Assembly (NCBI GenBank): GCA_965238075.1
Contig: OZ250173.1
Span: forward strand, 2,432,001-2,496,000
DNA: 64,000 bases
Source of the DNA: Candidatus Entotheonellaceae bacterium
Lineage (GTDB): Bacteria > Tectomicrobia > Entotheonellia > Entotheonellales > Entotheonellaceae
Reading direction: 5' to 3'
The notes below the pieces were generated by a model. It was not told the DNA's origin. It saw only the letters and a list, made by a program, of their open reading frames with translations, and made no database searches. Positions 3,128-5,168 of this stretch are shown here, one piece after another. Position 1 is the stretch's first letter, and each line of letters opens with the position of its first letter. A program made the translations under genes and the position numbers.

Positions 3128-3312
3128 CATGCGTTATCCACTGTCCACCGAACTTGCGGCCAGTTGCGCCGCCCAATGCCCCAAAGCGTGATTCCGGCAC
3201 GTTGCGCCATCCAGCGCCTGTTTGGTATTGTTACCGCACTTTCCGCATCCGCATTTGAACGCATCGGCAATGGGCTGTTTGGCTCGACGGACAGCACTGT
3301 TAGGAGTTACGT

Positions 3313-4503
3313 ATGGCTAAGACGCAGCAAGATTTTCTTGTCGCGGCGCGGCAGGAAATCCCGGAAGTGAGCGTGCAGGAGGTGCAGGAACGCGGCCAGC
3401 CCGGTGACGACTTTGTGCTCCTGGACGTACGCGAGAACGACGAGGTGCGCGCCGGCTACATCGACGGGGCGGTCGCCATTCCGCGCGGGTTTCTCGAATT
3501 TCAAGTGGCCAGCAAGGTGCCGCAGACCGACAAGGAAATAATCGTTTACTGTGCGGGTGGCGCTCGCTCGCTGCTGGCGGCTCAGGTGCTGCGCTCAATG
3601 GGGTATGAAAACGTGTCGTCGATGGCCGGCGGCGTTACCCGCTGGAAGGATGCCGGGTTTCCCGTTCAGCGGGACCGGCAGCTCAGTGCGGAGCAGCTCG
3701 AGCGCTACAGCCGGCATTTCCTATTGTCCCAGATCGGCGAAAAGGGACAGGGGAAACTCCTGGACGCCAAGGTCCTGCTGGTTGGCGCCGGCGGCCTCGG
3801 TTCGCCCGCCGCGCTGTATCTCGCCGCCGCGGGTGTCGGCACGCTCGGCCTGGTGGATGCCGACGTGGTGGATCTGTCCAACCTGCAGCGCCAGGTGCTG
3901 CACAGCAACGACCGCATCGGCATGCCCAAAACCGAGTCGGGCAAGATTGCCATCAACGCGATCAACCCGGACGTCAACGTGCAGGCCCACAACATGCGAC
4001 TGACGACCGATAACGTCCTGGACCTGTTCGCCGAGTACGACATCATCGTCGATGGCTGCGACAACTTCCCGACGCGGTATCTGGTCAACGACGCCGCGGT
4101 GTTGGCGCGCAAGCCCGTGGTGCACGGCAGTATTTTCCAGTTTGAGGGACAGGCGAGCGTGTTCAAGCCACCTGAAGGGCCGTGCTATCGTTGCCTGTTT
4201 CCCACGCCGCCGCCGCCGGGGCTGGTGCCCTCGTGAAGCGAGGCCGGCGTCCTGGGAGTTTTGCCCGGGGTCATTGGTGTGGTGCAGGCGACGGAAACCG
4301 TGAAGCTCATCGTCGGACAGGGAGAACCCCTGGTCGGCCGCCTGCTGATGTACGACTCGTTGGCTATGACGTTCCGCGAAATCCGCCTGCGGCGCGATCC
4401 GAATTGCCCGCTGTGCGGCGACAACCCTACCATCACGGAGTTGGTCAATTACGAGGAGCTTTGTGGTCTTGCCGCTCCGGAACCGGTGGGTGTGGGTGGT
4501 TAA
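3313..4503 (+). CDS. moeB: Rhodanese + ThiF/MoeB E1-like adenylyltransferase/sulfurtransferase (MoeZ-type), 396 aa with in-frame TGA at codon 308, probably selenocysteine
   Basis: Rhodanese loop CAGGARS, RYSRH, GAGGLG, SNLQRQ, PCYRC, then PS-[TGA 4234-4236]-SEAGVLGVLPG continuing in the same frame to CPLC and TAA at 4503. ORFs 3313..4236 and 4261..4503 are in the same frame. Confidence 0.88.
4249..4271 (+). promoter_or_regulatory. Bacterial SECIS-like hairpin downstream of the in-frame TGA
   Basis: CCUGGG (4251-4256) pairs with CCCGGG (4264-4269). An A-U closing pair gives an apical loop GUUU whose first G lies 21 nt after the UGA. Folded by eye. Confidence 0.55.
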
Positions 4504-4517
4504 GACGTACTGTTGAA

Positions 4518-4569
4518 CCAAAGGAAAGGGCCGGCGTGGGAAGTTACCCACGCCGGCCCTTTCCTTTGG
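4518..4569. terminator. Perfect 23-bp inverted repeat between convergent genes, likely a bidirectional terminator
   Basis: CCAAAGGAAAGGGCCGGCGTGGG-AAGTTA-CCCACGCCGGCCCTTTCCTTTGG. Confidence 0.75.
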
Positions 4570-4591
4570 CGCCGAGAACGTCCGTCTTCGG

Positions 4592-4942
4592 CTATTGCCA
4601 CGTTCCTTTCACGCAGCGCCCGCAGACCGCATTCGTCGATCCGTCCGGTTTGTGAATCGTCAGTCCGGTGGCGTCGCAGCCGATGCCGCAGAGGAAGCCG
4701 CCACCGAAGCCAACGCACATGAGGCACTCGGTGTCACCCTTGCCGAGTTCGTGGTTGTTGTCCAGCCACTCCTGGAAAATATCGCTCGTGTCGGGTTTCT
4801 GCTCTTTTTCCTGAGTCGCTGCCGGAACGGCCGCGGGTTCATCCTTCGGCGTCTCCTCAGCGTGGCCGCTGATCGCTAAAGCGCCGGCAATGGCAACGGC
4901 CAGGGCAACCTGCACCAAAACGGTGTACAGTTTCCTTTTCAT
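4592..4942 (-). CDS. Small secreted protein with a six-cysteine C-terminal domain
   Basis: Signal peptide MKRKLYTVLVQVALAVAIAGALAISGHA, an acidic linker, then CLMC...CGIGC...CGRC. Confidence 0.7.
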   Translation of the reverse strand: MKRKLYTVLVQVALAVAIAGALAISGHAEETPKDEPAAVPAATQEKEQKPDTSDIFQEWLDNNHELGKGDTECLMCVGFGGGFLCGIGCDATGLTIHKPDGSTNAVCGRCVKGTWQ

Positions 4943-5168
4943 CTTCACACCTGTTAACCAACGATTGTTCGTGTACCCGTAGGCGGTTGCCGAACGGGCG
5001 GTCCACCGCATTGTCCGCCATCCGAAACGCTCACGCCAACGATATTATTTCTCGCCGTCCGGTTGGCCCTTGACAGGCCGCGGGGCTTCTGGCTAGATGC
5101 GCCGCCGGTTCGCACGGCTGGGCGATTTGTTACCAACCCGTACCGATTTGCTTAAGGAGTTCGCACGC

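What the first reader, a model, noticed from the sequence alone, without database searches (positions are those of the whole stretch)
3313..4503. Probable selenocysteine at the catalytic cysteine of a rhodanese-MoeB (E1-like) enzyme
Seen: an in-frame TGA at PS*SEAGVLG, with the frame continuing for 88 more residues including the second Zn-binding CxxC, and a hairpin whose G-starting loop lies 21 nt downstream. Established: this position corresponds to the conserved Cys of the xCxEAG motif (E. coli MoeB Cys187, ThiF Cys184, yeast Uba4 Cys225), implicated in covalent linkage to the ubiquitin-like sulfur carrier. Inference: a selenoenzyme E1 in sulfur (or selenium) relay that standard gene callers split. 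I recall Sec-MoeB being predicted in metagenome surveys, but I know of no biochemical characterisation.
Basis: partly seen in the sequence, partly recalled or inferred. Interest (0 to 1): 0.75.

Follow-up and report, generated by a model that had tools for sequence, protein, structure and literature searches.

The report
Selenocysteine in a rhodanese-MoeB sulfur-carrier activating enzyme
An apparent stop codon inside a sulfur-carrier activating enzyme almost certainly encodes selenocysteine, placing it in a selenoprotein family first predicted in 2005 but never studied at the bench, and in this bacterium it looks like the only enzyme of its type.

Summary
Window 3313-4503 (+) is one 396-codon gene: an N-terminal rhodanese domain fused to a MoeB/ThiF adenylation domain. 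It has an in-frame TGA at 4234-4236, where E. coli MoeB has Cys187 and ThiF has Cys184.

Evidence for selenocysteine:
- The genome carries selA, selB, selD and tRNA-Sec(TCA).
- TGA is kept in all 13 closest orthologues among 41 related genomes, and in at least 119 more DNA stretches (Poribacteria, Rokubacteria/Methylomirabilota, Syntrophaceae and others).
- Full-length orthologues at 76-81% identity have Cys at this position.
- The 88 codons after TGA evolve like coding sequence.
- Independent DNA and RNA-library contigs read TGA.

A SECIS-like hairpin follows the TGA. Its stability and covariation are not above chance. Only the fixed synonymous codons, compared with Cys controls, argue for an RNA constraint.

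Sec-MoeB was predicted in the Sargasso Sea (2005) and GOS (2008) surveys and is listed in reviews from 2022 and 2026. This is therefore a new member of a known, uncharacterised kind.

What this work adds: it is the only ThiF-family gene in this single-contig genome, alongside six GG-ended carriers (ThiS, MoaD, four paralogues). Thiamin and molybdenum/tungsten cofactor synthesis therefore probably depend on selenium. The proposed selenoester/selenosulfide relay is inferred by analogy with Uba4.

The parts
3313..4503 (+). Whole gene: 396 codons plus TAA, encoding a rhodanese-MoeB/ThiF E1-like selenoprotein
   Evidence: Pfam finds Rhodanese at residues 26-113 and ThiF at 132-366. NCBIfam NF006444 MoeB scores 574 bits against a cut-off of 449.
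3302..3306 (+). AGGAG Shine-Dalgarno-like motif, 6 nt before the ATG
   Evidence: Read directly from the sequence.
3388..3651 (+). Rhodanese domain (residues 26-113)
   Evidence: PF00581, E = 4.6e-17.
3550..3552 (+). Cys80 codon in the rhodanese active-site loop (YCAGGARS)
   Evidence: Cys in 156 of 156 aligned Sec and Cys orthologues.
3706..4410 (+). ThiF/MoeB adenylation domain (residues 132-366)
   Evidence: PF00899, E = 7.1e-86. 1jw9_B MoeB matches at E = 5.1e-60.
4183..4194 (+). First CxxC (Cys291, Cys294). It aligns with MoeB Cys172/Cys175.
   Evidence: alignment. Conserved in 156 of 156 sequences.
4234..4236 (+). TGA, read as selenocysteine 308
   Evidence: Aligned with MoeB Cys187 and ThiF Cys184. 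TGA is kept in 13 of 13 closest orthologues and in at least 119 further stretches. Contigs of 4 runs show no other letter here.
4243..4278 (+). SECIS-like hairpin: lower stem 4243-4247 with 4274-4278, upper stem 4249-4256 with 4264-4272, loop AGUUUUG at 4257-4263
   Evidence: Folds. In Sec forms the stem codons are fixed (Val GTC 73/77, Leu CTG 75/77), against 12/64 and 23/64 in Cys controls. Stability and covariation are not above chance.
4405..4416 (+). Second CxxC (Cys365, Cys368), downstream of the TGA
   Evidence: Conserved in 155 of 156 sequences.
4518..4570 (.). Long perfect inverted repeat just after the stop codon, terminator-like, lying between convergent ORFs
   Evidence: Fold of 4507-4580 gives -52.6 kcal/mol. 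Function not tested.

Best explanation
The gene encodes one 396-residue protein in which UGA at codon 308 is read as selenocysteine by the organism's SelA/SelB/SelD/tRNA-Sec system. The hairpin that starts about 10 nt after the UGA probably helps.

The protein is an E1-like adenylyltransferase/sulfurtransferase: an N-terminal rhodanese domain with catalytic Cys80, and a MoeB/ThiF adenylation domain with a P-loop and a four-Cys zinc site. Sec replaces the conserved Cys of the flexible loop next to the adenylation site.

It is the only ThiF-family enzyme in this genome. It most likely activates all six GG-ended ThiS/MoaD-type carriers: ThiS, MoaD, two beside xanthine-dehydrogenase-type enzymes, one beside an aldehyde:ferredoxin oxidoreductase, and one orphan.

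Proposed cycle, inferred by analogy with Uba4 and not shown here:
1. The carrier's C-terminal Gly is adenylated.
2. Sec308 attacks the adenylate and forms a selenoester.
3. The persulfide on Cys80 attacks the selenoester, giving an acyl-disulfide.
4. The carrier thiocarboxylate is released, possibly by Sec308 attacking to leave a Cys80-Sec308 selenosulfide that is easily re-reduced.
For: Shown:
- In-frame TGA with an open frame beyond it.
- selA, the selB wing domain (next to selA), selD, and tRNA-Sec with anticodon TCA.
- TGA is the commonest stop of long ORFs (691 of 1438), so the code is not reassigned.
- All 13 closest orthologues among the 41 genomes searched carry exactly one TGA, at this codon wherever checked (12 of the 13; L026 not checked). 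The shorter homologues have TGC/TGT.
- A pattern scan that did not constrain the hairpin found at least 119 stretches with TGA here. By my hand count of record titles, the 80 fetched are 36 Poribacteria, 21 Rokubacteria/Methylomirabilota, 10 Syntrophaceae/Thermodesulfobacteriota/'Deltaproteobacteria', 3 'Entotheonella'-labelled, 1 Acidoferrum and 9 unnamed.
- 79 full-length orthologues have Cys at this position, the closest at 76-81% identity.
- On a tree of 77 Sec and 79 Cys rows, the label needs at least 4 changes.
- After the TGA, differences from family-level orthologues fall mainly on third codon positions (for example 13/3/36). Protein identity is similar before and after U (medians 0.61 and 0.59).
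- Strong SelA matches occur in 12 of 13 genomes with the TGA form. None of the 15 genomes without SelA has it.
- Contigs from two RNA libraries (two studies) and two other runs cross the codon with no other letters.
- Cys80 and the four zinc cysteines are conserved in 155-156 of 156 sequences.
- PF00899 matches only this gene above cut-off in G000. The genome also has six PF02597 ORFs that all carry GG, one MoaE and one ThiG.

Basis for the mechanism: Uba4 Cys225 forms a thioester that is essential for transfer to the rhodanese domain (PMC6007339, abstract). The acyl-disulfide is resolved by a second, still unidentified cysteine (PMC11662940, sections 30 and 32).
Against: - No protein-level evidence exists, so Sec insertion itself is inferred.
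- The hairpin is no more stable than dinucleotide shuffles (z = 0.09) or synonymous recodings (16-19% fold at least as well). The motif VLGVLPG tends to encode such a hairpin anyway, and the loop GU is simply a Val codon.
- There is no covariation: the stems are nearly invariant, and shuffles match the observed values.
- My generic hairpin criterion did not separate Sec forms from Cys forms.
- For E. coli MoeB and ThiF, the equivalent Cys is reported not to form a thioester (PMC13139853 passage). The selenoester step may therefore not apply.
- The sole-E1 claim rests on one Pfam model. The marker-based completeness estimate is 93%, although the genome is one contig.
- Two of the six genomes in the genus have an extra, distant ThiF-family gene.
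- Gene neighbourhood gives no conserved partner.
Confidence: 0.85

Rival explanations
1. Sec is inserted but never carries the acyl group. It serves only as the resolving or redox partner of the rhodanese Cys80 (selenosulfide formation, easy re-reduction, resistance to irreversible over-oxidation). The persulfide attacks the adenylate directly, as proposed for bacterial MoeB.
For: Bacterial MoeB/MoaD is described as forming an acyl-persulfide without a thioester (PMC6007339 passage; PMC13139853 passage). In Uba4, a second cysteine is needed to cleave the acyl-disulfide (PMC11662940, section 32). In the Sargasso paper's abstract, most of the predicted selenoproteins are redox proteins with catalytic Sec.
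Against: The nearest mechanistic analogue with a fused rhodanese domain, Uba4, does use this residue for a thioester. Nothing in the sequence tells the two roles apart.
Confidence: 0.3
2. UGA is decoded mostly by near-cognate read-through (Trp, Cys or Arg) or terminates. The organism then lives on a small amount of full-length non-Sec protein, or on a 307-residue fragment plus a separately started 80-residue C-terminal piece (TTG 4261).
For: Gene callers produce exactly these pieces. The hairpin has no statistical support of its own.
Against: TGA is conserved across several phylum labels while Cys is a single base change away. It co-occurs with SelA. Stem codons are fixed in Sec forms only. 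The fragment would lack half of the zinc site, which is conserved in 155 of 156 sequences. Two other ORFs in this genome put TGA at or beside the rhodanese active-site position and have similar loops 21-24 nt downstream.
Confidence: 0.05
3. The gene is a pseudogene with a nonsense mutation, or the TGA is an assembly error.
For: None beyond the stop codon itself.
Against: All 13 closest orthologues carry one in-frame TGA, plus at least 119 further stretches. The substitution pattern after the stop is that of coding sequence. Four runs agree on TGA. It is the only ThiF-family gene in a genome that keeps ThiS/ThiG and MoaD/MoaE.
Confidence: 0.01
4. The enzyme moves selenium rather than sulfur, making selenocarboxylate carriers, for instance for a labile selenium cofactor in the neighbouring xanthine-dehydrogenase-type enzymes.
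For: Two GG-carrier paralogues lie beside xanthine-dehydrogenase-family genes. The organism makes selenophosphate, since selD is present.
Against: The marker genes of the selenium-cofactor trait, yqeB and yqeC, were not found (their marker role is recalled from memory). Orthologues with Cys in place of Sec are common. ThiS and MoaD need sulfur.
Confidence: 0.03

Closest known systems
Sec-containing 'molybdopterin biosynthesis MoeB' selenoprotein family, predicted in the Sargasso Sea (2005; 11 sequences) and GOS (2008; 19 sequences) surveys and listed in the 2022 and 2026 prokaryotic selenoproteome reviews
   Same: A MoeB/ThiF-family protein (COG0476/PF00899) with an in-frame TGA paired with Cys in homologues and a stem-loop after the TGA (PMC1088965, PMC2398784, PMC9312934 and PMC13188914; passages and tables seen).
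   Different: I could not see the published alignments. Figures are not held and supplements are closed. It is therefore untested whether the published members have Sec at this same residue or share the N-terminal rhodanese architecture. The published sets are marine, whereas the members found here come largely from Poribacteria, Rokubacteria/Methylomirabilota and Syntrophaceae genomes.
NCBIfam NF006444 (PRK08762): MoeB with an N-terminal rhodanese domain, Cys form
   Same: Full-length match at 574 bits (cut-off 449), covering residues 5-386 of the protein against positions 3-385 of the 387-position model. Same domain order. Cys orthologues reach 76-81% identity.
   Different: Sec instead of Cys at residue 308, followed by a hairpin with fixed codons.
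Uba4 / MOCS3 / MoeZ-type adenylyltransferase-sulfurtransferases
   Same: An E1 adenylation domain and a rhodanese domain in one chain. The same loop Cys, in SCGEAG of Chaetomium Uba4 (6yub), aligns with residue 308. A thioester on that Cys, followed by persulfide attack, is documented (PMC6007339, PMC11662940).
   Different: In those enzymes the rhodanese domain is C-terminal, here it is N-terminal. NF005902 MoeZ scores 431 bits, below its cut-off of 647. This protein probably works like them but is not a member.
E. coli MoeB (1jw9) and ThiF (1zud/1zfn)
   Same: Adenylation domain matches at E = 5e-60 and 4e-58. The zinc cysteines align, and Cys187/Cys184 align with residue 308.
   Different: They have no rhodanese domain and each serves one dedicated carrier. 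Their loop Cys is reported not to form a thioester.
Single shared E1s serving several sulfur carriers (Thermus TtuC, archaeal UbaA). Recalled from memory, not tested here.
   Same: One ThiF-family enzyme in a genome with several GG carriers.
   Different: Those enzymes use Cys and lack a fused rhodanese domain. NF047750 UbaA scores 370 bits, below its cut-off of 450.

Membership tests
Bacterial selenoprotein (Sec-MoeB family) | In-frame TGA aligned with a conserved Cys in homologues | tested here: met
   TGA in the 12 of the 13 closest orthologues checked at the codon (all 13 carry one in-frame TGA) and in at least 119 further stretches. 79 Cys orthologues. Aligns with MoeB Cys187.
Bacterial selenoprotein (Sec-MoeB family) | Sec-insertion machinery in the same genome (selA, selB, selD, tRNA-Sec) | tested here: met
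   All four are present, and the tRNA anticodon is TCA.
Bacterial selenoprotein (Sec-MoeB family) | Bacterial SECIS: a stem-loop just after the UGA with a small apical loop containing G | tested here: inconclusive
   The form and position fit: 76 of 77 sequences form at least 6 bp in one of two registers, and the loop starts NGU 20-21 nt after the UGA. Stability and covariation are not above chance. The only independent support is the fixed stem codons compared with Cys controls.
Bacterial selenoprotein (Sec-MoeB family) | Selenium shown in the protein | not testable with these tools
   Needs 75Se labelling or mass spectrometry.
MoeB/ThiF E1-like adenylyltransferase (PF00899; NF006444) | Adenylation domain with a Gly-rich nucleotide loop and two CxxC zinc motifs, scoring over the curated cut-off | tested here: met
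MoeB/ThiF E1-like adenylyltransferase (PF00899; NF006444) | Adenylates the C-terminal Gly-Gly of ThiS/MoaD-type carriers | not testable with these tools
   Six GG-carrier ORFs exist in the genome. Activity is inferred.
Rhodanese (PF00581), catalytically active | Active-site Cys at the start of the CxxGxR(S/T) loop | tested here: met
   Cys80 in YCAGGARS, conserved in 156 of 156 sequences.
MoeZ / MOCS3 / Uba4 type | Rhodanese domain C-terminal to the adenylation domain, scoring over the family cut-off | tested here: not met
   The rhodanese domain is N-terminal. NF005902 scores 431 bits against a cut-off of 647.

The most novel reading that the evidence does not exclude
In this lineage a selenoenzyme is the single gateway for all ubiquitin-like sulfur carriers. 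Thiamin and every molybdenum/tungsten-pterin enzyme of the cell would then be strictly selenium-dependent. The E1 would work through a carrier-selenoester and a Cys80-Sec308 selenosulfide. That would be the first selenoester-forming E1, and it would show that the loop cysteine, held to be non-catalytic in E. coli MoeB, is rate-limiting in rhodanese-fused bacterial E1s.
Probability: 0.3. Interest if true: 0.65.

Novelty: new member of a known kind. Interest (0 to 1): 0.4.

Why it matters
The family is catalogued, but my two literature searches found only table entries and no experiment.

This case offers a clean system for testing what the E1 loop cysteine does in bacterial sulfur-carrier activation:
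- natural Sec and Cys orthologues at 76-81% identity with the same architecture;
- a fused rhodanese partner cysteine;
- a genome in which this enzyme appears to be the only E1 for six carriers.

If that is so, selenium supply would limit thiamin and molybdenum/tungsten cofactor synthesis in these bacteria. Closely related records and the runs that hold the stretch are labelled as sponge-associated.

It also matters for annotation. The nearest database entries are all cut to 307 residues, so metabolic reconstructions of Poribacteria, Rokubacteria and their relatives may wrongly score MoeB/ThiF as broken.

Tried and rejected
- **Thermodynamic support for the hairpin.** The dinucleotide shuffle and the synonymous-recoding null were both not significant.
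- **Covariation** in two stem registers: none, because the stems are nearly invariant.
- **Generic SECIS rule.** A rule of at least 5-6 bp with G in the first two loop positions did not separate Sec from Cys forms.
- **Conserved gene neighbourhood** across 91 loci. No partner is shared across phyla. There were only lineage-specific neighbours: an HtrA-like protease in 19 loci and a MoaB/Mog-like gene in 9 loci, both in Rokubacteria-type loci, and a small Cys-rich ORF in 17 Poribacteria loci. I named these by eye, not by a search.
- **Other selenium traits.** yqeB and yqeC gave no match, and selU gave none over cut-off.
- **Earlier notes of this scan.** Nothing to show.
- **PMC37467** (ThiF-ThiS acyl-disulfide paper): not held. 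That point rests on how later papers cite it.
- **Read depth and expression.** One search used contigs only, so it cannot rank expression or prove transcription.
- **Not attempted.** Structure and complex prediction were not run. The tools return no coordinates, so the Cys80-Sec308 distance could not be measured, and an E1-carrier pair would pass by likeness to solved structures. The tree was not rooted, so the direction of the Sec/Cys changes is open.

Full report
**1. The observation.** The + strand of window 3313-4503 holds one reading frame of 396 codons. It begins at ATG 3313 (AGGAG at 3302-3306) and ends at TAA 4501-4503. A single TGA interrupts it at 4234-4236, in the context PPPPGLVPS-TGA-SEAGVLG. 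Under table 11 the ORF list splits it into a 307-residue ORF and an 80-residue TTG-started ORF. The 88 residues after the TGA contain the second CxxC (Cys365, Cys368). A hairpin follows the TGA, with upper stem 4249-4256/4264-4272 and loop AGUUUUG at 4257-4263. The loop G lies 21 nt after the UGA.

**2. What the protein is.** Pfam finds a rhodanese domain (residues 26-113) and a ThiF domain (132-366). NCBIfam NF006444, the MoeB type with an N-terminal rhodanese domain, matches end to end at 574 bits against a cut-off of 449. The MoeZ, UbaA and plain MoeB/ThiF equivalogs fall below their cut-offs. Against solved structures, the adenylation domain matches E. coli MoeB (1jw9, E = 5e-60), Chaetomium Uba4 (6yub) and E. 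coli ThiF (1zud/1zfn). Counting along the printed alignments, residue 308 falls on MoeB Cys187, on ThiF Cys184 and on the Cys of SCGEAG in Uba4. Cys291/Cys294 fall on MoeB Cys172/Cys175. The rhodanese loop YCAGGARS keeps its catalytic Cys80.

**3. Is the TGA selenocysteine?** The genome is one 3.35-Mb contig, 62% G+C, with an estimated completeness of 93%. It carries selA, an adjacent selB, selD, and a tRNA-Sec with anticodon TCA. TGA is the commonest stop of long ORFs (691 of 1438), so it is not reassigned genome-wide.

- Among 41 related genomes, the 13 best matches each carry exactly one TGA. These are 6 genomes of the genus, 5 of the family, 1 of the class and 1 more distant. In the 12 I checked at nucleotide level the TGA is at this codon. 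Seven shorter homologues without the rhodanese domain have TGC or TGT.
- A pattern scan of 185,579 species' genomes asked only for PPGxVPx-TGA-xE(A/G)G and left the hairpin unconstrained. By my count of record titles, the 80 fetched are 36 Poribacteria, 21 Rokubacteria/Rokuibacteriota/Methylomirabilota, 10 Syntrophaceae/Thermodesulfobacteriota/'Deltaproteobacteria', 3 labelled Candidatus Entotheonella (identical to the window in the 66-nt segment), 1 Acidoferrum and 9 unnamed.
- Wherever the locus held enough sequence, the frame was open for at least 300 codons before the TGA and 76-107 after it.
- After the TGA, differences from family-level orthologues fall mainly on third codon positions (13/3/36, 12/4/37, 20/6/37, 13/6/31 and 13/7/35 over 84 codons). 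Protein identity to the window is alike before and after U, with medians of 0.61 and 0.59 over 76 sequences.
- Strong SelA matches occur in 12 of the 13 genomes with the TGA form. The exception is 62% complete. None of the 15 genomes without a SelA match has the TGA form.
- Contigs from four public runs cross 4234-4236 with no other letters. Two are RNA libraries from two studies, and two come from other studies with no library type on record. One RNA contig has only 30 letters on the left side. RNA-library contigs do not prove transcription.

**4. Cys/Sec alternation.** A protein search listed 120 hits. Of these, 38 are 307-residue proteins at 85-99% identity that end ...VPS, which are the truncations produced by gene callers. 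The full-length ones have Cys at the aligned position, the closest at 76-81% identity with the same architecture (PSCSEVG). I built a FastTree tree of 77 Sec rows and 79 Cys rows, with the Sec/Cys column masked. Rows shorter than 300 residues before the site, incomplete at the 3' end, or duplicated were dropped. The label needs at least 4 changes, 2 of them forced by well-supported branches. The window's clade (support 99) holds 11 Sec and 62 Cys rows. The tree is unrooted, and the two groups came from different searches, so direction and rates are open.

**5. The hairpin, told fairly.** All 77 distinct Sec sequences can form the stem CCUGGG/CCCRGG.
- 19 sequences, including the window, use the register with loop AGUUUUG or AGUUGUR.
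- 58 use a register shifted by one base, with loop CGUGCU.
- 76 of 77 reach at least 6 uninterrupted pairs, and one reaches 5.
- The loop always begins NGU, about 20-21 nt after the UGA. [quoted passage not shown]
- Two other ORFs in this genome have TGA at or beside the rhodanese active-site position. They have GGC and GUU loops 22-24 nt after their UGA.

The evidence against is as follows.
- Stability is not above dinucleotide shuffles (z = 0.09) or synonymous recodings (16-19% are at least as stable).
- There is no covariation. Two cells show a C-G to G-C swap, and shuffles match the observed values.
- The peptide VLGVLPG tends to encode such a hairpin by itself, and the loop GU is a Val codon.

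The one independent signal is codon choice. In Sec forms Val is GTC in 73 of 77 and Leu is CTG in 75 of 77, while neighbouring third positions are saturated. In 64 Cys controls with the same VLGxxPG peptide, taken from a matched TGY scan of metagenomes, these figures are 12 of 64 and 23 of 64. The local fold energy is more uniform in Sec forms (median -10.5, all at or below -7.1) than in the controls (median -7.0, ranging up to -1.4), with Mann-Whitney p = 1e-8. The sequences are related, so this p-value overstates the case.

**6. Role in the cell.** PF00899 matches only this gene above its cut-off in the window's genome. The same holds in 3 of the 5 other genomes of the genus. The other two have one extra, distant ThiF-family gene. 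The genome has six PF02597 (ThiS/MoaD) ORFs, all with a C-terminal GG:
- ThiS beside ThiG, ending GG;
- MoaD beside MoaE, with GG followed by 10 more residues;
- two beside xanthine-dehydrogenase-family molybdoenzymes, ending GGA and GGV;
- one beside an aldehyde:ferredoxin oxidoreductase and a flavin oxidoreductase, ending GG;
- one beside a SurA-like gene, ending GGRR.

The inference is that one selenoenzyme activates all of them. No yqeB or yqeC match was found, and no selU match over cut-off. Sec insertion therefore seems to be the only selenium trait.

**7. Mechanism (inferred).** In Uba4, the Cys equivalent to residue 308 forms a thioester with Urm1 that is essential for hand-over to the rhodanese domain (PMC6007339, abstract). 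The rhodanese persulfide then makes an acyl-disulfide, which a second, unidentified cysteine resolves to give an intramolecular disulfide (PMC11662940, sections 30 and 32). For E. coli MoeB and ThiF, the same Cys is said not to form a thioester (PMC6007339 and PMC13139853 passages). The present enzyme has a fused rhodanese domain like Uba4, though at the other end of the chain. I therefore favour adenylation, then a selenoester on Sec308, then attack by the Cys80 persulfide, then release with a Cys80-Sec308 selenosulfide. The main rival is that Sec acts only as the resolving or redox residue.

**8. Novelty.** 'Molybdopterin biosynthesis MoeB' was reported as a new selenoprotein family from the Sargasso Sea (11 sequences) and seen again in GOS (19 sequences). 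It was scored as not detected in the Olavius symbiont selenoproteome, and it is listed in the 2022 and 2026 reviews (passages and tables only). My two literature searches (MoeB + selenoprotein, and selenocysteine/MoeB/ThiF/rhodanese/selenoproteome) returned only these catalogue entries and no experimental study. Figures and supplements were not available, so I cannot say whether the published members share this Sec position and architecture. Verdict: a genuine selenoprotein gene and a new member of a known, uncharacterised kind. The useful additions are its taxonomic spread, the natural Cys twins, the sole-E1 setting, and an honest limit on the SECIS evidence.

Noticed in passing
G000:C1:1342538-1342894 (-) and G000:C1:2660932-2661252 (-), both outside the window: Two small rhodanese-like ORFs with an in-frame TGA at or next to the active-site position (IVTH-U-GGENR and VVLY-U-TCPHH). 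Each is followed by a hairpin whose GGC or GUU loop lies 22-24 nt after the UGA. They are probably further selenoproteins of this genome.
   Followed up: partly
L179 (G000:C1:464525-464800, + strand): The MoaD ORF beside MoaE runs on for 10 residues after its Gly-Gly (…VSGG-YGCSASRQNP) and overlaps the MoaE start. Three other carrier paralogues end GGA, GGV and GGRR. These tails would have to be trimmed before activation. I did not look for a JAMM-type peptidase.
   Followed up: no
L176, L177, L178 (G000:C1:486822-489380, 1591227-1594001, 2104922-2108365): Extra MoaD-like GG carriers sit directly beside two xanthine-dehydrogenase-family genes and one aldehyde:ferredoxin oxidoreductase with a flavin oxidoreductase. 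This suggests enzyme-dedicated pterin-cofactor carriers.
   Followed up: partly
window 4518-4570: A perfect inverted repeat of about 23 bp lies right after the stop codon (fold of 4507-4580 gives -52.6 kcal/mol), between this gene and a convergent ORF on the minus strand (4592-5011). It is terminator-like and was not tested.
   Followed up: no
Alignment A1, columns 27-45 (window 4251-4269): The hairpin exists in two registers that differ by one base. In 19 sequences CCUGGG pairs with CCCGGG around a 7-nt loop. In 58 it pairs with CCCAGG around a 6-nt loop. The stem is therefore kept without strictly homologous base pairs.
   Followed up: yes
G001:C1:3098909-3099589 and G003:C163:3711-4391: Two of the six genomes in the genus have an additional, distant ThiF-family gene (about 110 bits, 470-codon open frame) that the window's genome lacks.
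   Followed up: no
window 4235 and 4059-4104 (loose ends): In the same public runs, contigs of other organisms' Cys-type MoeB genes partly overlie this gene and diverge just after the TG of the TGA (…TGCGCCGAAGGC…). Sec and Cys forms therefore coexist in those communities.
   Followed up: no
L052-L121 (17 Poribacteria loci), about 320-340 nt after the TGA, same strand: A conserved ORF of about 80 residues with CxxC…CxxC lies immediately downstream of the Sec-MoeB gene in 17 Poribacteria loci. Its function is unknown, and it is absent from the window.
   Followed up: no
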